Source: a virus
Taxonomy: Duplodnaviria; Heunggongvirae; Uroviricota; Caudoviricetes
Virus record (IMG/VR): IMGVR_UViG_2861084961_000002
Length of the DNA stretch: 47,167 bases
Direction: 5' to 3' (one strand)
Part shown: positions 7,811 to 47,167 of the stretch, piece by piece
Numbering within the stretch: position 1 is the first letter of the stretch
Layout of the letters: every line of letters begins with the position of its first letter
The notes under the pieces: model-generated
Seen by the model: the letters and a program-made list of their open reading frames with translations, nothing else
What the model was told of the DNA's origin: nothing
Database searches by the model: none
Made by a program: the position numbers and the translations under genes

Positions 7811-8958
<1,148 letters not shown>

Positions 8959-10814: not shown

Positions 10815-11672
10815 TTATCGTTTATTTCTTTGATGTTTCTTTGCAGACTCAGCTTGAGTGTTTCCATACCTGCGTTTACCGCTATTGTTTTTTCCCCTAG
10901 GCTTGCCTTTTTTTCGATCTTCCCACCAGTCAGGTGCCGGGTCTGGCTCAACATGTAAAGCATCGGCAAGTCCTGATATCAAGCTGTATGACTGAACTCC
11001 ATCAATGTGCTCTGACAGTGATGGGGTAACATTCTGTCTTAGTGGATCAAGAATAAAATCAATACCTTTAATTCTGGCGTGTTTGGCGGCAGGCACAAAG
11101 TCTGAGTCCCCAGCAACAAGGACAATTACATCAACAAGTTTTTCATAAGCTAAAGTCGTGATATCCATCCCTAGCTTGATATCAACTTGTTTTTGTTTGA
11201 TGTCATAGTAAAAATCATCATTTGTCAGTTCATCCCATTTTTTCGTTCCTTTCATCAGAGCATCAAGGGAGAATGTAGTTAGTTGCCATCGCTTATTATC
11301 AACAAGATTCCCTAATCTTAAGGCTGTTTTTCGAGTTTTTCTTAACTCTTCATGCAGCTCCGTTCTCAGAATATATGATTTTTCGAGTTTGAAATTCTTG
11401 CGACCAGGCGTCTTATTGCCAGGCTCAGGAAGTGGAAGGCGTGTTTGAATGTCGAGTGGTGGACAGTCATAGAAGTAAATTCTATAAAGCTCAAGCGGTT
11501 CCCTACGTTCTTGTGATTGACGTTTTCCATTAAGATGGGAAAGAACCATTGACCATATTACTTTCATTATGCATTGCGCAGTCAGTTCATGCTCGGCGAA
11601 GTGTTTACGATGCGTAGCATGAACACGCTGCATGAAAAAACCCGCATCAATTAAAATTGCTGCTTTCTTCAT
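10815..11672 (-). CDS. NYN-domain (PIN-like nuclease fold) protein with lysine/arginine-rich C-terminal tail; occupies the rexA/rexB position downstream of cI
   Basis: 285-aa ORF; N-terminal AAILIDAGFF and central VIVLVAGDSDFVPAAKHARIKGIDFILDPL match NYN hallmark motifs from memory; not recognised as RexA or RexB. Confidence 0.75.
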   Translation of the reverse strand: MKKAAILIDAGFFMQRVHATHRKHFAEHELTAQCIMKVIWSMVLSHLNGKRQSQERREPLELYRIYFYDCPPLDIQTRLPLPEPGNKTPGRKNFKLEKSYILRTELHEELRKTRKTALRLGNLVDNKRWQLTTFSLDALMKGTKKWDELTNDDFYYDIKQKQVDIKLGMDITTLAYEKLVDVIVLVAGDSDFVPAAKHARIKGIDFILDPLRQNVTPSLSEHIDGVQSYSLISGLADALHVEPDPAPDWWEDRKKGKPRGKNNSGKRRYGNTQAESAKKHQRNKR

Positions 11673-11799: not shown

Positions 11800-12516
<717 letters not shown>

Positions 12517-18062: not shown

Positions 18063-19160
18063 TTAGAACTGGTAAACCAGACCTACAGCAACGATGTCAT
18101 CAGTGCTTACACCGAGTGCTTTAGTGAAGTCATTTTTGTCAAGCAGGTTGATTTTGTAATCAACGAAAGTAGACATATTTTTGTTGAAGTAATAGGTTGC
18201 ACCTACATCAACATATTTGACTAAGTCCTGATCGCCCCATACTCCAAGATCCTTACCTTTAGATTGCAGGTAAGCAACGGACGGACGCAGACCGAAATCG
18301 AACTGATATTGTGCAACAGCTTCGAAGTTTTGGGCTTTATTAGCAACGAAGTGATCAGCAAATACAGTCATATTCTGGGTTTCAGAATAGGTAGTGGCCA
18401 GGTAAATGTTGTTAGCGTCATATTTCAGACCTGCGGCCCAAACTTCTGCATTTTTACCGGAAGCAAATACTTCAGGAAGAACTTTCCCTGCATTAACTTG
18501 AGTGTCGGTACGATCAGATTTCGCATAAGTTGCACCGATACCGAATCCTTCGTATTCATAGGTAGCAGAGAAACCGAAGCCATCACCGTTACCTTCAGTG
18601 TAGTTATCGAAATCGCTACGATCGTTTTTGCCTTGGTACTGAGCAGCAAAATTCAGACCATCAACCAGACCAAAGAAGTCGTTGTTACGATAGGTTGCAA
18701 CACCAGTTGCACGTTGAGTCATGAACACGTCGGTTTGAGTCCAAGTGTCACCACCGAATTCTGGCAGGACGTCAGTCCACGCACCGATGTCGTATGCTAC
18801 ACCGTAGTTACGGCCGTAATCGATGGAGCCGTAGTCACCGAATTTCAGGCCAGCGAAGGCAAGACGGGTTTTATCTTTGGAGGAACCTTGAGATTCAGCG
18901 CGGTTGCCTTTGAATTCATATTCCCACTGACCGAAACCAGTCAGTTGATCGTTGATTTGGGTTTCACCTTTGAAGCCAAGACGGGCATAAGTAGTATCAC
19001 CATCATCTGCATCATTAGAGGAGAAGTAGTGCTTAGCATTAACTTTCCCGTACAGATCCAGCTTGTTACTGTCTTTATTATAAATTTCAGCTGCCTGAGC
19101 AGACATCGCCATCAGTACTGATGCAGCTACAGCAGAAATTGCCACTGTTAATTTTTTCAT
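18063..19160 (-). CDS. nmpC: Outer-membrane porin, NmpC/Lc (OmpC-family) type; lysogenic-conversion gene
   Basis: Start [23 protein letters not shown] (signal peptide) inside track ORF 18063-19220; C-terminal ...VAVGLVYQF beta-barrel signature. Confidence 0.9.
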
Positions 19161-19587
19161 CGTGAGCCCTTTTTTTGAACTATTATTAAAAAATGATGTC
19201 ACTGCGCGATAAATATTCATCTAATCAATGTGATTATTTCAAGATGTAAGTTTTGGTTTCTCGTTTGATTTGTGAAGTAGATCTCTATTTTTATCTGAAC
19301 TTTTTTCTATCGAATCCTATTCATGGCTCTTGGCTGAATAAAAATAAATCTGTTAGCCAATTTATATTAACGGCTGTTATTTATAAGCGCTCTATAATTT
19401 GAAGGTTCAATTTAAACCAGCTAAAAATAACACTGGAAATTATTTGTTGGTTATTTGTTGAGATTTGCTTATGTATTTGTAGTGGTGTTTTCAATACTCG
19501 GTAGCATTCTCGCAAATATCATTTAGTGGTTTACGTACGTAAAAAATTGGTTATGCTGTTAAGAGTGGTTACTTCGTCACACAGCTT

Positions 19588-37451: not shown

Positions 37452-40400
37452 ATGGGTAAAGGCAGCAGTAAGGGGCATACCCCGCGCGAAGCGAAGGACA
37501 ACCTGAAGTCCACGCAGCTGCTGAGTGTGATCGATGCCATCAGCGAAGGGCCGGTTGAAGGTCCGGTGGATGGATTAAAAAGCGTGCTGCTGAACAGTAC
37601 GCCGGTGCTGGACAGTGAGGGGAATACCAATATATCCGGCGTCACGGTGGTGTTCCGGGCCGGTGAGCAGGAGCAGTCACCGCCGGAGGGATTTGAATCC
37701 TCCGGCTCCGAGACGGTGCTGGGTACGGAAGTGAAATATGACACGCCGATCACCCGGACCATCACGTCGGCAAACATCGACCGTCTGCGCTTTACCTTCG
37801 GTGTACAGGCACTGGTGGAAACCACCTCAAAGGGTGACAGGAATCCGTCGGAAGTCCGCCTGCTGGTTCAGATACAGCGTAACGGTGGCTGGGTGACGGA
37901 AAAAGACATCACCATTAAGGGCAAAACCACCTCGCAGTATCTGGCCTCGGTGGTGGTGGATAACCTGCCGCCGCGCCCGTTCAGTATACGGATGCGCAGG
38001 ATGACGCCGGACAGCACCACAGACCAGCTGCAGAACAAAACGCTCTGGTCGTCATACACCGAAATCATCGATGTGAAACAGTGCTACCCGAACACGGCAC
38101 TGGTCGGTGTGCAGGTGGACTCGGAGCAGTTCGGCAGCCAGCAGGTGAGCCGTAATTATCATCTGCGCGGGCGTATTCTGCAGGTGCCGTCGAATTATAA
38201 CCCGCAGACGCGGCAATACAGCGGTATCTGGGACGGAACGTTTAAGCCAGCATACAGCAATAACATGGCCTGGTGTCTGTGGGATATGCTGACCCACCCA
38301 CGCTACGGCATGGGGAAACGTCTTGGTGCGGCGGATGTGGACAAATGGGCGCTGTATGTCATCGGCCAGTACTGCGACCAGTCAGTGCCGGACGGCTTTG
38401 GCGGCACGGAGCCGCGCATCACCTGTAATGCGTACCTGACCACACAGCGCAAGGCGTGGGATGTGCTCAGTGATTTCTGCTCGGCGATGCGCTGTATGCC
38501 GGTATGGAACGGGCAGACGCTGACGTTCGTGCAGGACCGACCGTCGGATAAGGTGTGGACCTATAACCGCAGTAATGTGGTGATGCCGGATGATGGCGCG
38601 CCGTTCCGCTACAGCTTCAGCGCCCTCAAGGACCGCCATAATGCCGTTGAGGTGAACTGGATTGACCCGGATAACGGCTGGGAGACGGCGACAGAGCTTG
38701 TGGAGGACACGCAGGCCATTGCCCGTTATGGTCGTAACGTCACGAAGATGGATGCCTTTGGCTGTACCAGCCGGGGGCAGGCACACCGAGCCGGGCTGTG
38801 GCTGATTAAAACGGAGCTGCTGGAAACGCAGACCGTGGACTTCAGCGTGGGTGCTGAAGGGCTTCGCCATGTACCGGGCGATGTCATTGAAATCTGCGAT
38901 GATGACTATGCCGGTATCAGCACCGGCGGGCGCGTGCTGGCGGTGAACAGCCAGACCCGGACGCTGACGCTCGACCGTGAAATCACGCTGCCATCTTCCG
39001 GCACCACGCTGATAAGCCTGGTTGACGGAAGTGGCAATCCGGTCAGCGTGGAGGTCCAGTCCGTCACCGACGGCGTGAAGGTAAAAGTGAGCCGTGTTCC
39101 TGACGGCGTTGCCGGATACAGCGTATGGGGGCTGAAGTTGCCGACGTTGCGCCAGCGCCTGTTCCGCTGTGTGAGTATCCGTGAGAACGATGACGGCACG
39201 TATGCCATCACTGCCGTGCAGCATGTACCGGAAAAAGAGGCCATCGTGGATAACGGGGCGCACTTTGACGGCGATTTGAGCGGCACGGTGAATGGTGTCA
39301 CGCCGCCAGCGGTACAGCACCTGACAGCCGAAGTCTCCGCAGACAGCGGGGAATATCAGGTGCTGGCGCGCTGGGACACACCGAAGGTGGTGAAGGGGGT
39401 GAGCTTTATGCTTCGCCTGACCGTGACAGCGGACGATGGCAGTGAGCGGCTGGTCAGCACAGCCCGGACGACGGAAACCACATACCGCTTCAGGCAGCTG
39501 GCGCTGGGAAACTACAGGCTGACAGTCCGGGCGGTAAATGCGTGGGGACAGCAGGGCGATCCGGCGTCGGTATTGTTCCGGATTGCCGCACCGGCGACGC
39601 CGTCGCGGATTGAACTGACGCCGGGCTATTTTCAGATAACCGCAACGCCGCATCTTGCCGTTTATGACCCGACGGTACAGTTTGAGTTCTGGTTCTCGGA
39701 AAAGCGGATTACCGATATCAGGCAGGTTGAAACTACAGCCCGCTATCTTGGCACGGCGCTGTACTGGATAGCTGCCAGTATCAATATCAAGCCGGGTCAT
39801 GATTATTATTTTTACGTTCGCAGTGTGAACACTGTTGGCAAATCGGCATTCGTGGAGGCTGTCGGTCGGGCGAGCGATGATGCGGAAGGTTACCTGGATT
39901 TTTTCAAAGGAGAAATCGGGAAAACACATCTGGCCCAGGAGCTGTGGACGCAGATTGATAACGGTCAGCTTGCGCCGGACCTGGCTGAAATCAGGACGTC
40001 CATTACGAATGTCAGCAATGAAATCACGCAGACCGTCAATAAAAAACTGGAAGACCAGAGTGCGGCAATCCAGCAGATACAGAAAGTTCAGGTTGATACA
40101 AATAATAACCTGAACAGCATGTGGGCTGTGAAGCTGCAGCAGATGCAGGACGGACGCCTTTATATCGCGGGTATTGGTGCCGGTATTGAGAACACCCCTG
40201 ACGGCATGCAGAGTCAGGTGCTGCTGGCGGCGGACAGGATTGCGATGGTTAATCCTGCGAATGGCAACACAAAACCGATGTTTGTTGGTCAGGGCGATCA
40301 GATATTCATGAACGACGTGTTCCTGAAACGCCTGACGGCCCCCACCATTACCAGCGGTGGAAATCCACCGGCATTTTCCCTGACACCGGACGGAAAGCTG

Positions 40401-40949
40401 ACCGCTAAAAATGCGGATATCAGTGGCAGTGTGAATGCGAACGCCGGGACGCTCAACAATGTCACGGTAAATGAAAACTGTACGATTAAGGGCATGCTGG
40501 AGGCGACTCAGGTCAGAGGTGACTTCGTTAAAGCTGTATCCAAATCATTCCCGAAACAGGCTGGTACGTGGGGTAATACGGAAACACCAAACGGGACGGT
40601 TACAGTCACCATCAGCGATGATCATAACTTTGACCGTCAAATCATTATTCCGCCCATTATCTTTAACGGAATAGCGTATAGCGATCCGGGAAGTGGTAAT
40701 AACCCGGGAGGTACAAGATACACGGGTTATGGTTTTGAAGTTCGCAAAAACGGTGTATTAATCGCATCCAGAGAAACTAAAGGGGCCATTCCCGGTAGCT
40801 ACAGTGCGGTTATTGATATGCCGAGTGGCAGGGGAAGCGTCACTCTGGAGTTTAAGGTTTTCCATAAAGGCAATCAGTGGGCAGGTAATATCACCGACTG
40901 TACGGTGATTGTGACCAAAAAAGCCGCTTCCGGCATCAGTATTCGTTGA
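37452..40949 (+). CDS. J: Central tail fiber / tip attachment protein J, with non-lambda C-terminal receptor-binding region
   Basis: 1165-aa ORF; first ~815 aa recognised as lambda J, C-terminal part divergent except a conserved block [46 protein letters not shown]. Confidence 0.95.
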
Positions 40950-40971: not shown

Positions 40972-40996
40972 GGCGTCAGGAATGACGCCTTTTTTA
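40972..40996 (+). terminator. Rho-independent terminator after J
   Basis: Stem GGCGTCA/TGACGCC with loop GGAA followed by TTTTTTATT. Confidence 0.65.
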
Positions 40997-41019: not shown

Positions 41020-41619
41020 ATGCGTAAAGTTTGTGCAGCAATTTTGTCCGCAGCCATTTGTCTGGCCGTATCCGGTGCGCCTGCATGGGCATCTGAACAT
41101 CAGTCCACGCTGAGCGCGGGGTATCTTCATGCCTCGACGAACGTTCCCGGCAGCGATGATCTGAACGGGATTAACGTGAAATACCGTTATGAGTTTACGG
41201 ACACACTGGGGATGGTGACGTCATTCAGCTATGCAGGAGACAAGAATCGCCAGCTTACCCGTTACAGCGATACCCGCTGGCATGAAGATTCCGTTCGTAA
41301 CCGCTGGTTCAGCGTGATGGCGGGGCCGTCTGTGCGCGTGAATGAATGGTTCAGCGCGTATGCGATGGCGGGTGTGGCTTACAGCCGTGTGTCGACTTTC
41401 TCCGGGGATTATCTCCGCGTAACTGACAACAAGGGGAAAACGCACGACGTGCTGACCGGAAGTGATGACGGTCGCCACAGCAACACGTCTCTGGCGTGGG
41501 GAGCTGGCGTGCAGTTTAACCCGACCGAATCCGTGGCCATTGATATTGCTTATGAAGGCTCCGGCAGCGGTGACTGGCGTACCAACAGTTTCATCGTTGG
41601 TGTCGGTTATAAATTCTGA
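41020..41619 (+). CDS. lom: Lom outer-membrane protein (Ail/Lom family), lysogenic conversion
   Basis: 199-aa ORF with signal peptide and beta-barrel ending VGVGYKF. Confidence 0.92.
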
Positions 41620-41646
41620 TTAGCCAGGTAACACAGTGTTATGACA

Positions 41647-41673
41647 GCCCGCCGGTTCAGGCGGGCTTTTTTG
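41647..41673 (+). terminator. Rho-independent terminator after lom
   Basis: Stem GCCCGCC/GGCGGGC followed by TTTTTT. Confidence 0.65.
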
Positions 41674-41682
41674 TGGGGGAAT

Positions 41683-44600
41683 ATGGCAGTACGGATTTCA
41701 GGTGTACTGAAAGATGGCGCAGGTAAGCCGATACAAAACTGCACCATTCAGCTAAAGGCCAGGCGCAACAGCACCACGGTGGTGGTGAACACAGTGGCCT
41801 CAGAAAACCCGGATGAAGCCGGGCGTTACACAATGGACGTCGAGTATGGTCAGTACAGCGTCAGTCTGTTGGTGGAGGGATTCCCGCCATCACATGCCGG
41901 GACCATTACCGTGTATGAAGATTCTCAACCCGGTACGCTGAATGATTTTCTCGGTGCCATGACAGAGGATGATGCCCGTCCTGAGGCTCTGCGCCGTTTT
42001 GAACTGATGGTGGAAGAGGTGGCGCGTAACGCGTCCGCGGTGGCACAGAACACGGCAGCCGCGAAGAAGTCAGCCAGCGATGCCGGCACATCAGCCCGTG
42101 AGGCGGCAACCCATGCGACTGATGCTGCAGGCTCAGCACGCGCAGCCAGCACGTCAGCCGGACAGGCCGCGTCGTCGGCTCAGTCAGCGTCTTCCAGCGC
42201 AGGAACGGCATCAACAAAGGCCACTGAAGCGGAAAAAAGTGCTGCCGCTGCAGAGTCCTCAAAAAGCGCGGCGGCCACCAGTGCCGCTGCGGCGAAAACG
42301 TCAGAAACGAATGCGGCAGCGTCACAACAATCAGCAGCCACTTCTGCATCCAACGCGACCACGAAAGCGTCAGAAGCTGCCACCTCAGCCCGGGATGCGT
42401 CAGCTTCAAAAGAGGCGGCAAAATCATCAGAAACGAGCGCAGCCTCGAGCGCCAGCAGCGCAGCTTCCTCGGCAACGGCGACAGCAAATTCTGCGAAGGC
42501 GGCCAAAACGTCCGAGACGAACGCTAAGTCTTCTGAAACGGCAGCGGGACAGAGTGCCTCAGCTGCGGCAGGCTCAAAAACAGCGGCTGCGTCGTCTGCC
42601 AGCGCCGCGTCAACAAGTGCCGGGCAGGCCTCAGCCAGTGCCACCGCTGCCGGAAAGTCGGCAGAAAGTGCCGCATCGTCTGCTTCAACAGCCACAACGA
42701 AGGCTGGCGAAGCCACTGAACAGGCCAGCGCAGCAGCGAGGTCTGCTTCCGCAGCGAAGACATCCGAAACGAACGCGAAAGCGTCGGAAACCAGCGCAGA
42801 ATCCTCAAAAACGGCTGCCGCATCGTCAGCCAGTTCGGCGGCGTCATCGGCATCATCGGCGTCTGCTTCAAAAGATGAGGCGACCAGACAGGCGTCAGCA
42901 GCGAAGGGCAGCGCCACGACAGCATCCACGAAGGCGACAGAGGCAGCTGGCAGTGCGGCAGCGGCAGCACAGAGCAAAAGTACGGCGGAATCCGCGGCAA
43001 CGCGCGCCGAGACAGCGGCAAAACGGGCAGAGGATATTGCATCCGCCGTGGCGCTTGAGGATGCGAGCACGACGAAAAAGGGGGTAGTACAGCTCAGCAG
43101 TGCGACCAACAGTACGTCTGAAACGCTGGCGGCAACGCCAAAGGCAGTAAAATCAGCCTATGACAATGCAGAGAAACGTCTGCAGAAAGACCAGAACGGC
43201 GCTGATATACCCGATAAGGGACGCTTCCTGAACAACATTAACGCGGTCAGTAAAACAGACTTTGCTGATAAGCGTGGTATGCGTTATGTGCGGGTTAACG
43301 CTCCTGCAGGTGCAACATCTGGAAAATATTACCCTGTTGTTGTTATGCGTTCTGCTGGCTCAGTAAGCGAACTGGCATCAAGGGTCATTATCACCACGGC
43401 AACGCGAACCGCAGGCGATCCGATGAATAACTGCGAGTTTAACGGATTTGTTATGCCTGGTGGCTGGACTGACAGGGGGCGTTATGCTTATGGAATGTTC
43501 TGGCAATATCAAAACAATGAACGAGCCATCCACTCAATAATGATGAGTAATAAGGGCGATGATTTGCGCTCTGTGTTCTATGTTGATGGCGCTGCTTTCC
43601 CTGTTTTTGCGTTTATCGAAGATGGCCTGTCAATATCCGCACCTGGTGCTGATCTCGTTGTTAATGATACGACCTATAAGTTTGGGGCAACAAATCCGGC
43701 GACTGAATGTATCGCGGCGGACGTTATCCTTGATTTTAAGAGTGGGCGTGGTTTTTATGAGTCTCATTCGTTAATCGTTAACGATAACTTGTCGTGCAAA
43801 AAACTTTTTGCCACAGACGAAATTGTAGCGCGTGGTGGTAATCAGATTCGAATGATAGGTGGGGAGTATGGTGCATTATGGCGTAATGATGGCGCTAAAA
43901 CTTACCTGCTGCTTACCAATCAAGGTGATGTTTATGGTGGCTGGAATACATTAAGACCGTTTGCTATTGATAACGCAACCGGCGAACTGATTATTGGAAC
44001 CAAACTGTCCGCAAGTCTGAACGGTAATGCATTAACAGCAACAAAGCTGCAAACGCCAAGACTGGTTTCTGGTGTTGAGTTTGATGGTTCCAAAGATATT
44101 ACTTTAACCGCCGCGCATGTGGCTGCTTTTGCCAGAAGGGCAACGGATACATATGCCGATGCGGATGGTGGCGTTCCCTGGAATGCCGAATCAGGCGCTT
44201 ACAATGTCACCCGCTCTGGCGACAGCTATATTCTGGTTAACTTCTATACCGGAGTCGGAAGTTGCCGGACCCTGCAGATGAAGGCGCATTACAGAAATGG
44301 AGGTCTGTTCTACCGTTCCTCAAGAGATGGCTATGGTTTTGAGGAAGACTGGGCAGAAGTTTATACCTCGAAAAATCTTCCACCAGAAAGCTACCCAGTC
44401 GGCGCACCAATCCCGTGGCCATCAGATACCGTTCCGTCTGGCTATGCCCTGATGCAGGGGCAGGCTTTTGACAAATCTGCCTACCCGAAACTTGCAGCGG
44501 CTTATCCGTCAGGCGTGATCCCTGATATGCTTGGCTGGACGATTAAGGGCAAACCTGCCAGTGGTCGGGCCGTATTGTCTCAGGAACAGGACGGCATTAA

Positions 44601-45084
44601 ATCGCATACCCACAGCGCCAGCGCATCCAGTACGGATTTGGGGACGAAAACCACATCGTCGTTTGATTACGGAACCAAATCCACGAATAACACCGGGGCG
44701 CATACCCATAGTATTAGCGGGACCGCAAATAGTGCCGGTGCGCACCAACACAAGAGTTCCGGTGCATTTGGTGGCACGAACACGAGCATTTTCCCTAATG
44801 GTTATACCGCGATTTCAAATCCAAGCGCGGGGATTATGAGCACAACAAGCGGTAGTGGCCAGACTCGTAATGCAGGGAAGACATCATCAGATGGTGCTCA
44901 TACCCACTCACTGTCCGGCACTGCTGCAAGCGCAGGTGCACACGCACATACTGTCGGTATTGGTGCTCATACGCACTCGGTTGCGATTGGCTCACATGGA
45001 CACACCATCACCGTTAACGCTGCTGGTAACGCGGAAAACACCGTCAAAAACATCGCATTTAACTATATTGTGAGGCTTGCATAA
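41683..45084 (+). CDS. stf: Side tail fiber Stf (full length, with Ala/Ser-rich tandem-repeat region and His-rich distal domain)
   Basis: Start [38 protein letters not shown]... inside track ORF 41641-45084; C-terminal GAHTHS-type repeats. Confidence 0.9.
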
Positions 45085-45665
45085 TGGCATTCAGAATGAG
45101 TGAACAACCACGGACCATAACAATTTATAATCTGCTGGCCGGAACTAATGAATTTATTGGTGAAGGTGACGCATATATTCCGCCTCATACAGGTCTGCCA
45201 GCAAACAGTACCGATATTGCACCGCCAGATATTCCGGCTGGCTTTGTGGCTGTTTTCAACAGTGATGAGGCATCGTGGCATCTCGTTGAAGACCATCGGG
45301 GTAAAACGGTCTATGACGTGGCTTCCGGCGACGCGTTATTTATTTCTGAACTCGGTCCGTTAGCGGAAAATGTTACCTGGTTATCGCCGGAAGGGGAGTT
45401 TCAGAAGTGGAACGGCACAGCCTGGGTGAAGGATACGGAAGCAGAAAAACTGTTCCGGATCCGGGAGGCAGAAGAAACAAAAAACAGCCTGATGCAGGTA
45501 GCCAGTGAGCATATTGCGCCACTTCAGGATGCTGTAGATCTGGAAATCGCAACGGAGGAAGAAATCTCGTTGCTGGAAGCCTGGAAGAAGTATCGGGTGT
45601 TGCTGAACCGTGTTAATACAACAACTGCACCGGATATTGAATGGCCAGTAGCACCTATAGGGTAA
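45084..45665 (+). CDS. tfa: Tail fiber assembly protein Tfa
   Basis: 193-aa [57 protein letters not shown]..., overlaps stf stop. Confidence 0.92.
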
Positions 45666-45744
45666 ATTCGTAATGATTACCTAAATACGTTATTCTTTTG
45701 TTAAAAAAGTGATTTTGCTATAGGTAGGGAGTATGTTCTTGGAT

Positions 45745-45782
45745 TAAGAATAAAAAATCGCCATGAAAGAGCTTCATGGCGA
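45745..45782 (-). terminator. Rho-independent terminator on the minus strand in the AT-rich region right of tfa
   Basis: 10-bp stem TCGCCATGAA/TTCATGGCGA with 5-nt loop, followed on the minus strand by TTTTTTATTCTT. Confidence 0.6.
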
Positions 45783-46469
45783 GTACATAAACGTACAAAA
45801 TGTGATGAAAGTAGAGTGGCGTAAGCCACTATATTAAGATATGACAATAGCGAAGAAAAGTAAATAACATTTCATGGACGTTTAATTGTTAATTATAAAA
45901 ACTAGAGTGCCCGATATTGTTTATCTTGCTTTAAAATAATGTACTCAAACCAAATTTTTGAGCTAAAAGCTCAAATAATATAAATGCAATAATAATGTTT
46001 AATAAGACAATTAGCTTGCTTTGTATTTTCATTTCGGAATACTGTTAAGTAACTTTGATGACCCTAACAATAGATCGGAATTTTCTTAGAGTCAATGGTC
46101 ACTGTTTTTGCTTGCAAAGCAAATGTTTTGGTGGTTATAAGTTGTCTTAATATAGTCACGCATGCAACTTGTTCCATGCGGAGATTAAAGATTGGAATAT
46201 AACGCGAAGATGGAATTAAATTACATTTGCAATAATCAATTTATTATTACTCAATAATTACCGATATTATTATTGTAAATTAATCATTAGAGTGCAAAAA
46301 GAAATGTAACGGCAAAATAAGAGGACGATAGCTGAGAAAAAAGCGTGCTTTCCCAATCTGGGGCAAATCACGTCTGAATGACACCTGAAAACAGGTGGTA
46401 GCCTCAAGAAGGCTGGTGATGCTGCCAACTTACTGATTTAGTGTATGATGGTGTTTTTGAGGTGCTCCA

Positions 46470-46745
46470 GTGGCTTCTGTTTCTATCAGCTGTCCCTCCT
46501 GTTCAGCTACTGACGGGGTGGTGCGTAACGGCAAAAGCACCGCCGGACATCAGCGCTATCTCTGCTCTCACTGCCGTAAAACATGGCAACTGCAGTTCAC
46601 TTACACCGCTTCTCAACCCGGTACGCACCAGAAAATCATTGATATGGCCATGAATGGCGTTGGATGCCGGGCAACTGCCCGCATTATGGGCGTTGGCCTC
46701 AACACGATTTTACGTCACTTAAAAAACTCAGGCCGCAGTCGGTAA
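46470..46745 (+). CDS. insA: IS1 InsA
   Basis: 91-aa [51 protein letters not shown]... Confidence 0.95.
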
Positions 46746-47167
46746 CCTCGCGCATACAGCCGGGCAGTGACGTCATCGTCTGCGCGGAAATGGACGAACA
46801 GTGGGGCTATGTCGGGGCTAAATCGCGCCAGCGCTGGCTGTTTTACGCGTATGACAGGCTCCGGAAGACGGTTGTTGCGCACGTATTCGGTGAACGCACT
46901 ATGGCGACGCTGGGGCATCTTATGAGCCTGCTGTCACCCTTTGACGTGGTGATATGGATGACGGATGGCTGGCCGCTGTATGAATCCCGCCTGAAGGGAA
47001 AGCTGCACGTAATCAGCAAGCGATATACGCAGCGAATTGAGCAGCATAACCTGAATCTGAGGCAGCACCTGGCACGGCTGGGACGGAAGTCGCTGTCGTT
47101 CTCAAAATCGGTGGAGCTGCATGACAAAGTCATCGGGCATTATCTGAACATAAAACACTATCAATAA
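46664..47167 (+). CDS. insB: IS1 InsB frame (expressed as InsAB' transposase by -1 frameshift)
   Basis: 167-aa ORF in the -1 frame overlapping insA 3' end, running to the window edge. Confidence 0.9.

What the first reader, a model, noticed from the sequence alone, without database searches (positions are those of the whole stretch)
39895..40949. J has a non-lambda C-terminal receptor-binding region
The first ~815 residues track lambda J closely, then the sequence diverges after ...[13 protein letters not shown]. One conserved block ([46 protein letters not shown]) is followed by an unrelated final ~150 aa. The C-terminus of lambda J is the LamB-binding domain, so this phage probably uses a different outer-membrane receptor.
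Basis: partly seen in the sequence, partly recalled or inferred. Interest (0 to 1): 0.45.

Follow-up and report, generated by a model that had tools for sequence, protein, structure and literature searches.

The report
Lambda-like J with phage-434-type receptor tip
The tail-tip protein J of this lambda-like E. coli prophage carries the receptor-binding end of phage 434, not lambda's, so it most likely docks on the porin OmpC rather than LamB; this module swap is common and long known.

Summary
J (37452-40949, 1165 aa) is 97% identical to lambda J up to residue 820. It then diverges, contains one block identical to lambda (aa 952-997), and ends in a strongly diverged tip.

That tip is not "unrelated". 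It matches the Pfam J receptor-binding domain (E=1e-25), is 39% identical to lambda's, and its predicted fold matches the solved gpJ tips.

J is a mosaic:
- aa 1-820: lambda/434/21-like.
- aa 821-940: phage-21-type shaft, 28 aa longer than lambda's.
- aa 941-998: lambda-like conserved linker.
- aa 999-1165: phage-434-type receptor-binding domain (95% identical over aa 1029-1165). This module continues through lom.

Lambda and 434 J differ essentially only in this last module. 434 and lambda h434 use OmpC rather than LamB, so OmpC is the likely receptor (about 0.77, by homology only).

Caveat: divergence alone does not predict the receptor. Phage 21 has an equally diverged tip and still uses LamB.

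The allele is ordinary. A tip at least 90% identical occurs in 74 of 243 J-bearing phage records. The stretch occurs in 1164 of 5426 complete E. coli genomes, some 100% identical and annotated gpJ. Low interest; already known.

The parts
37452..40949 (+). Gene J (central tail fibre / tip attachment protein), 1165 aa, intact
   Evidence: ORF list. NCBIfam lambda_TipJ 2336 bits, cut-off 1950. Six Pfam J domains in order. PDB lambda gpJ 8iyk matched over aa 1-1164.
37452..39911 (+). Module 1: baseplate hub and two FNIII/Ig domains, lambda/434/21-like
   Evidence: aa 1-820 are 97% identical to lambda, 98% to 434 and 97% to 21. About 95% nt identity to each over nt 1-2460 of the gene.
39912..40271 (+). 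Module 2: alpha-helical shaft and upper part of the straight fibre, phage-21/WGPS6 type, 28 aa longer than lambda's
   Evidence: aa 821-940: 117/120 identical to phage 21 J, 41-46% to lambda with a 28-aa insertion. DNA 93-100% to phage 21 and 21-70% to lambda. Domain names follow lambda gpJ in PMC11101478.
40272..40445 (+). Conserved linker (lower straight fibre), lambda-like; includes the quoted block at 40305-40442. Probable recombination joint between modules.
   Evidence: aa 941-998: 93% identical to lambda, 88% to 434, 88% to 21. DNA 88-97% to lambda. Block coordinates. The joint role is inference.
40446..40949 (+). Module 3: phage-434-type receptor-binding domain (Pfam Ig_GpJ_C at aa 1029-1164 = nt 40536-40943); predicted OmpC binder
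   Evidence: aa 1029-1165: 130/137 identical to 434 J, 39% to lambda, 44% to 21, 46% to phi330/A8. DNA 86-99% to 434. Pfam E=9.7e-26. Predicted fold matches 9wcb, 9wca, 8xck and 8xcj.
40972..40989 (.). GC-rich inverted repeat between J and lom, at the position where the 434 record annotates a terminator after J
   Evidence: Terminator-like scan; 434 annotation. Function not tested.
41020..41619 (+). lom (Ail/Lom outer-membrane protein), 434-type; travels with the J tip as one ~1.1 kb cassette
   Evidence: Pfam Ail_Lom E=1.9e-121. 96% aa identity to the 434 homologue. DNA 96-100% to 434 and 36-68% to lambda from 40992 to about 41530.
41646..41667 (+). Terminator-like hairpin plus T-run after lom. 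It lies inside the 5' extension of the longest stf ORF, which argues for the later stf start.
   Evidence: PGAP places the stf start at the equivalent of Met15.
41683..45084 (+). stf (side tail fibre, about 1133 aa from Met15; longest ORF starts at 41641). N-terminus and tip are Ur-lambda-like, with a long extra middle part.
   Evidence: Pfam phage_tail_N, Gp34_trimer and Collar. 79% identical to lambda orf-401 and 69% to lambda orf-314.
45084..45665 (+). tfa (tail fibre assembly chaperone)
   Evidence: Pfam Caudo_TAP E=2.9e-42. 93% identical to lambda orf-194.

Best explanation
This is the J gene of a lambda-like prophage sitting at the lambda attachment site of E. coli. It was assembled by homologous recombination from modules known in other lambdoid phages. 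The modules are a lambda-like hub and FNIII body, a phage-21-type helical shaft that is longer than lambda's, a conserved linker, and a phage-434-type receptor-binding domain that arrived together with the 434-type lom gene. The trimeric tip most likely docks on the trimeric porin OmpC instead of LamB. It would then trigger the same fibre rearrangement and tail opening described for lambda gpJ. Shown here: the mosaic structure, the homology and the predicted fold. Inferred: OmpC as receptor, the triggering mechanism, and the conserved linker as the crossover site.
For: 1. Segment identities and sliding-window DNA identities give sharp module boundaries at about nt 39912, 40272, 40450 and 41530.
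2. The tip is 95% identical to 434 J.
3. Lambda and 434 J are 98-100% identical up to aa 998, then 63% and 38% identical. The tip is therefore the only substantial difference within J between the LamB user and the OmpC user.
4. The literature states that 434 uses OmpC and that lambda carrying the 434 J gene binds OmpC (PMC11101478, PMC3509688).
5. Engineered lambda gpJ chimeras with swapped C-termini retarget to OmpC, so the module is portable (PMC11338833). There is a solved A8 gpJ-OmpC complex, 9wcb.
6. The tip has the J receptor-binding fold.
7. The last 169 aa are 100% identical in the plaque-forming phage Ayreon, isolated on a K-12 derivative, and in PhiR49_1 (PMC5764929). The allele is therefore functional.
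8. All seven differences from 434 in the tip lie at sites that are recurrently polymorphic within the 434-type clade.
Against: No adsorption or knockout data were found for this exact allele or for its near-identical relatives.

The sequenced lambda h434 hybrid carries the 434 lom, stf and tfa genes as well as J, so it does not isolate the tip genetically.

Receptor choice in this family can change with very few substitutions. Phage 21 uses LamB although its tip is 79% identical to the OmpC-binding phi330/A8 tip. One J mutation adds OmpC, and further mutations add OmpF.

The seven substitutions relative to 434 include W1143 (R in 434, G in WGPS6). This site is three residues from the position aligned with lambda 1107, a residue critical for receptor switching.
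Confidence: 0.77

Rival explanations
1. The tip binds a different porin, or only particular OmpC alleles (for example OmpF, an Lc/NmpC-type porin, or non-K-12 OmpC variants). The seven substitutions relative to 434 would have shifted its specificity.
For: Very few J mutations change porin use in lambda and phage 21 (PMC6646904, PMC11336670). Chimera 1A2 recognises EDL933 OmpC but not K-12 OmpC, so allele-level specificity exists in this family. The differences from 434 fall at recurrently polymorphic sites of the clade, and residue 1143 is tri-allelic W/R/G.
Against: 95% identity to a tip of known receptor. The last 169 aa are 100% identical in Ayreon, which was isolated on a K-12 derivative. 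So the allele is at least not confined to exotic hosts.
Confidence: 0.13
2. The phage still uses LamB despite the diverged tip, as phage 21 does.
For: Phage 21's tip is only 49% identical to lambda's, yet LamB is its native receptor. Divergence from lambda is therefore not evidence against LamB.
Against: The tip is not 21-type (44% identical) but 434-type (95%). 434 is the classical OmpC-dependent, LamB-independent lambdoid phage.
Confidence: 0.06
3. The gene is a relic in a defective prophage and currently has no adsorption function.
For: An IS3-family transposase ORF lies in the early region (7811-8629) and IS1 lies at the right end of the window (46470-47167). The prophage may therefore not be inducible.
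Against: J, lom, stf, tfa and the upstream tail genes are all intact. The 11-kb J-to-IS1 stretch is 100% identical in many genomes. The same tip works in free-living phages.
Confidence: 0.04

Closest known systems
Phage 434 J (central tail fibre, OL657226), the classical 'h434' host-range determinant; receptor OmpC
   Same: aa 1-820 are 98% identical. The receptor-binding domain (aa 1029-1165) is 95% identical and aa 999-1028 93% identical. The downstream lom is 96% identical.
   Different: 434 has the short lambda-type shaft (aa 821-940 only 41-47% identical, 28 aa shorter). There are seven substitutions in the tip: S1032A, Q1036K, A1037V, N1047D, S1077D, R1127G, W1143R. 434 has a short 437-aa side fibre; this prophage has one of about 1133 aa.
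Lambda J (NP_040600; structures 8iyk, 8xcj, 8xck); receptor LamB
   Same: 97% identical over aa 1-820. The block aa 952-997 is identical. Same domain order and same tip fold.
   Different: Shaft 41-46% identical and 28 aa shorter. Tip only 39% identical, with indels at the loops.
Phage 21 J (OL657228); native receptor LamB, evolves to OmpC and OmpF
   Same: aa 1-820 are 97% identical. The long shaft module aa 821-940 is 97-98% identical.
   Different: Tip 44% identical. Phage 21's tip is of the phi330/A8 kind, 79% identical to phi330.
J of Stx2a phage WGPS6, Ayreon, cdtI, phi458, mEp332 and many O157 Stx1a/Stx2c phages
   Same: Same combination of 21-type shaft and 434-type tip. 92-99% nt identity over the whole 1056-nt stretch. 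The last 169 aa are 100% identical in Ayreon and in the Stx1a/Stx2c phages.
   Different: WGPS6 has a divergent N-terminal body (76% identical). No receptor has been published for these phages in the literature I could search.
A8 gpJ chimera (9wca; 9wcb in complex with OmpC) and phage phi330 J; receptor OmpC
   Same: Same fold (TM about 0.71). Best PDB sequence match to the C-terminal 351 aa, E=5.9e-100. OmpC binding shown experimentally.
   Different: A separate tip lineage, only 46% identical in aa 1029-1165. Its OmpC contacts cannot be transferred to this protein.

Membership tests
Lambda TipJ / central tail fibre J | Full-length match to the curated family model above its cut-off | tested here: met
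   NCBIfam NF049904 lambda_TipJ, 2336 bits against a cut-off of 1950, aa 1-1165.
Lambda TipJ / central tail fibre J | Domain order: hub, FNIII/Ig domains, tail-tip fibre, C-terminal receptor-binding Ig domain | tested here: met
   Pfam FNIII-A_GpJ, Phage-tail_3, Ig_J, Ig_J_second, Phage_Tail_Tip and Ig_GpJ_C all exceed their cut-offs, in that order.
Lambda TipJ / central tail fibre J | Position in the tail operon after H-M-L-K-I and before lom-stf-tfa | tested here: met
   ORF order in the window and the PGAP annotation of the identical locus in strain E5.
434-type (OmpC-binding) J receptor-binding module | Close sequence identity to the 434 J tip, distinct from the lambda, 21 and phi330/A8 tips | tested here: met
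   130/137 (95%) identical to 434, against 39%, 44% and 46%. DNA 86-99% identical to 434.
434-type (OmpC-binding) J receptor-binding module | The module is what distinguishes 434 J from lambda J | tested here: met
   Lambda and 434 are 98-100% identical over aa 1-998, 63% over 999-1028 and 38% over 1029-1165.
434-type (OmpC-binding) J receptor-binding module | Receptor-contact residues conserved | tested here: inconclusive
   There are seven substitutions, all at sites polymorphic within the clade. No 434-OmpC structure is available to say which residues make contact.
434-type (OmpC-binding) J receptor-binding module | Adsorption and infection depend on OmpC and not on LamB | not testable with these tools
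   Requires plating or adsorption on ompC and lamB mutants. No published data were found for this allele.
Lambda-type (LamB-binding) J receptor-binding module | Close identity to the lambda J tip (aa 1001-1132) | tested here: not met
   39% identity with 11 gap positions. Only 21 of 243 J-bearing phage records carry the lambda-type tip, and this is not one of them.
Lambda-type (LamB-binding) J receptor-binding module | Ig-like tip fold | tested here: met
   The model matches 8xck and 8xcj with TM 0.71-0.72. The fold is shared by all tip types, so it does not discriminate between receptors.

The most novel reading that the evidence does not exclude
This J allele (Q1036/A1037, S1077, R1127, W1143) may have a porin specificity that differs from 434's: particular OmpC alleles, or an additional porin. 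Together with the PA-2-type lc porin gene carried by the same prophage (18063-19220), it might form a 'bind the resident porin, then replace it' system that protects lysogens and progeny from re-adsorption.
Probability: 0.1. Interest if true: 0.4.

Novelty: already known. Interest (0 to 1): 0.12.

Why it matters
It matters little beyond annotation. The result gives this prophage, and the more than a thousand E. coli genomes carrying the same allele, a concrete and testable receptor prediction (OmpC). It shows that lambda's own LamB-binding tip is the rare type among sequenced J-bearing phages: 21 of 243 records, against 74 for the 434 type. It also illustrates the modular exchange of J tips at conserved linker segments, which is already exploited in engineered lambda delivery particles. 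The useful caution is that divergence from lambda does not by itself predict a new receptor, as phage 21 shows.

Tried and rejected
1. Literature searches for direct receptor data on phages with the identical or near-identical tip (Ayreon, mEp332, mEp460, phi458, Perceval, PhiR49_1, Stx2c phages) found nothing. Refardt 2011 and the Nikaido review are not held.

2. I first suspected the OmpC-dependent phage phi330 carried this tip, because its relative WGPS6 is 92% identical in DNA. Alignment showed that phi330 has the A8-type tip instead, 46% identical.

3. I looked for the sequence of the Eligo 1A2 chimera, which is specific for EDL933 OmpC, to see whether it is this tip. It is not in the held text or supplements.

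4. I checked whether the lambda h434 hybrid isolates the tip genetically. It does not, because it also carries the 434 lom, stf and tfa genes.

5. I tested whether the prophage's lc porin co-occurs with the 434-type tip. At least 15 porin-positive phage records have the 434-type tip. At least 3 have the 21-type, about 15 remain unclassified, and the many O157 Stx phages with this tip lack the porin. No clean association emerged and I dropped it.

6. The search for homologous proteins returned mostly short fragments. It was useful only for the structure alignment and for polymorphism counts.

7. Minus-strand ORFs under J (for example 38382-39929 and 40298-40495) were treated as chance ORFs inside a conserved coding gene.

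Full report
**What is there.** The stretch 39895-40949 is the 3' third of one intact + strand ORF, 37452-40949 (1165 aa). The protein is J, the central tail fibre (tip attachment protein) of lambda-like phages.
- It scores 2336 bits against NCBIfam lambda_TipJ (cut-off 1950).
- It has all six Pfam J domains in order.
- It aligns over aa 1-1164 with lambda gpJ of PDB 8iyk.
- It sits after the tail genes H, M, L, K and I and before lom, stf and tfa.

The window as a whole is a lambda-like prophage at the classical lambda attachment site. ybhC and a lambda-type integrase lie at the left end. ybhB-bioA lie beyond the right end in a genome that is 100% identical over the 11 kb from J to IS1.

**Checking the observation.**
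- Residues 1-820 are 97% identical to lambda.
- [13 protein letters not shown] is aa 808-820.
- DNA identity to lambda falls from 97% to 34% at nt 39912.
- The quoted conserved block is aa 952-997 (nt 40305-40442) and is identical to lambda.

The claim that the last ~150 aa are unrelated is wrong.
- They match the Pfam model of the J receptor-binding domain, PF12421, E=9.7e-26.
- They are 39% identical to lambda's domain.
- An AlphaFold2 model of aa 999-1165 (pLDDT 79) has four solved gpJ tips as its best PDB matches: lambda closed, lambda with LamB, A8 closed, and A8 with OmpC. TM is about 0.71.

**What it is: a mosaic of known modules.** I compared the window J with the J genes of lambda, 434, 21, Stx2a phage WGPS6 and phi330, at protein level by segment and at DNA level in 90-nt windows.

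| Module | Residues | Nucleotides | Closest relative |
|---|---|---|---|
| 1 | aa 1-820 | 37452-39911 | Common lambda/434/21 body, 97-98% aa |
| 2 | aa 821-940 | 39912-40271 | Phage-21/WGPS6 type: 117/120 identical to phage 21; 41-46% to lambda; 28 aa longer |
| 3 | aa 941-998 | 40272-40445 | Conserved in all; closest to lambda (93% aa; 88-97% nt) |
| 4 | aa 999-1165 | about 40446-40949 | Phage-434 type: 130/137 identical over aa 1029-1165, 28/30 over aa 999-1028 |

- By position, module 2 corresponds to the alpha-helical shaft and the top of the beta-prism fibre of lambda gpJ (PMC11101478).
- Module 4 is only 39% identical to lambda, 44% to phage 21 and 46% to phi330/A8.
- The 434-type DNA continues through the intergenic hairpin and lom to about nt 41530 (96-100% nt identical to 434; lom 96% aa identical). 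The tip and lom therefore form one cassette of about 1.1 kb.
- GC content drops from about 0.60 in the J body to 0.46-0.51 across modules 2-4.
- The conserved segments that flank the variable modules are the likely crossover sites. This is inference, in line with the modular theory of lambdoid phage evolution.

**What it most likely does.**
- Lambda J and 434 J are 98-100% identical up to aa 998 and differ only in the last module (63%, then 38%).
- Phage 434 uses OmpC. When lambda's J is replaced by the 434 gene, the phage binds OmpC instead of LamB (Hantke 1978 and related work, as cited in PMC11101478, PMC3509688 and bioRxiv 10.1101/2022.09.30.509847).
- C-terminal swaps into lambda gpJ have been used deliberately to retarget lambda particles to OmpC (PMC11338833). 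One such complex is solved, 9wcb.
- The window's tip is 95% identical to the 434 tip, so OmpC is the best-supported receptor.
- The later steps (opening of the tip, refolding of the shaft, tail opening) are inferred from the lambda structures.
- The last 169 aa are 100% identical in the plaque-forming phage Ayreon, isolated on a K-12 derivative, in PhiR49_1 and Perceval, and in about 30 O157 Stx1a/Stx2c phage records. The allele is therefore functional.

**Caveats.**
- I found no adsorption or knockout data for this allele or for its near-identical relatives.
- The sequenced lambda h434 hybrid also carries the 434 lom, stf and tfa genes, so it does not isolate the tip.
- Receptor choice in this family is labile. 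Phage 21 natively uses LamB although its tip is only 49% identical to lambda's and 79% identical to the OmpC-binding phi330/A8 tip. One J mutation adds OmpC and further mutations add OmpF (PMC11336670). Four lambda J mutations add OmpF (PMC6646904).
- The window differs from 434 at seven tip positions: S1032A, Q1036K, A1037V, N1047D, S1077D, R1127G and W1143R. All are recurrently polymorphic within the 434-type clade, and 1143 is tri-allelic W/R/G. W1143 lies three residues from the position aligned with lambda 1107, one of the two residues critical for lambda's receptor switch.
- I therefore put OmpC at about 0.77, another porin or allele-restricted OmpC use at 0.13, LamB at 0.06, and a non-functional relic at 0.04.

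**How common it is.**
- Of 243 phage records with a J tip, 74 carry a tip at least 90% identical to the window's, and 32 of those are at least 99% identical.
- Only 21 records carry the lambda-type tip, all of them lambda or laboratory derivatives.
- The whole 1056-nt stretch (21-type shaft plus 434-type tip) is covered at 80% or more in 25 phage records. These include cdtI, phi458, Ayreon, ev099, mEp332 and WGPS6.
- It is also covered at 80% or more in 1164 of 5426 complete E. coli genomes, several 100% identical and annotated 'gpJ: phage attachment tail tip protein J'.
- Natural diversity of the J specificity region has been analysed before, using some of these same phages (PMC6646904).
- The finding is thus a correct but ordinary observation about a known module.

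**Surroundings.**
- A terminator-like hairpin follows lom (41646-41667). It lies inside the 5' extension of the longest stf ORF, so stf probably starts at Met15 (41683), as PGAP annotates it.
- Stf (about 1133 aa) has an Ur-lambda-like N-terminus (79%) and tip (69%) with a long extra middle part. Tfa is 93% identical to lambda's.
- Ur-lambda Stf is reported to bind OmpC (PMC11338833). Whether this Stf does is not known.
- Unexpectedly, the prophage also carries a porin gene that is 98.9% identical to lc of phage PA-2. See 'noticed in passing'.

Noticed in passing
window 18063-19220 (- strand): A prophage-encoded general porin lies between the Q-like and lysis regions. Pfam Porin_1 E=5.6e-157; NCBIfam OmpC subfamily. 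It is 98.9% identical to the lc porin of lambdoid phage PA-2 (J02580.1) and 100% identical over 347 aa to the IS5-interrupted nmpC of phage 434B. From memory (not verifiable in the held library): PA-2 uses OmpC as its receptor, and Lc expression in lysogens lowers OmpC and OmpF. A phage with an OmpC-type J tip that also carries lc would fit that pattern. However, porin carriage is not cleanly tied to the 434-type tip: phages with the 21-type tip (PhiR57_1, ev017) carry it too.
   Followed up: partly
window 41641-45084: The side tail fibre is about 370 aa longer than Ur-lambda Stf. It has an Ala/Ser-rich repetitive N-terminal third, an inserted Gp34_trimer-type middle part, and a His-rich tip 69% identical to Ur-lambda's OmpC-binding tip. 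J and Stf may therefore target the same porin. The longest ORF start (41641) overlaps a terminator-like hairpin, so Met15 (41683) is the likely start.
   Followed up: partly
window 7811-8629 (- strand): An ORF for an IS3-family transposase (rve integrase core) lies in the early (recombination/b) region of the prophage. This could mean the prophage is not fully intact.
   Followed up: no
window 10815-11672 (- strand): A 285-aa protein with a NYN (RNase-like) domain lies immediately next to the cI-like repressor (11800-12513, Peptidase_S24 plus HTH). This is the position of rexAB-type lysogen-expressed exclusion genes in lambda, so it may be an anti-phage moron.
   Followed up: no
window 45700-47167: A low-GC stretch (30-36%) with no large ORF follows tfa, then an IS1A element (46470 to the end of the window). 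In strain E5 an AraC-family regulator and transposase fragments lie between IS1 and ybhB-bioA. The right prophage end has therefore been remodelled.
   Followed up: no
L004 (phage 21 J) compared with L002 (phi330 J): Phage 21's tip (native receptor LamB) is 79% identical to the tip of phi330 and the A8 chimera (receptor OmpC), but only 49% identical to lambda's LamB-binding tip. LamB use is therefore found in two distant tip lineages, and OmpC use in at least two (434-type and A8-type).
   Followed up: partly
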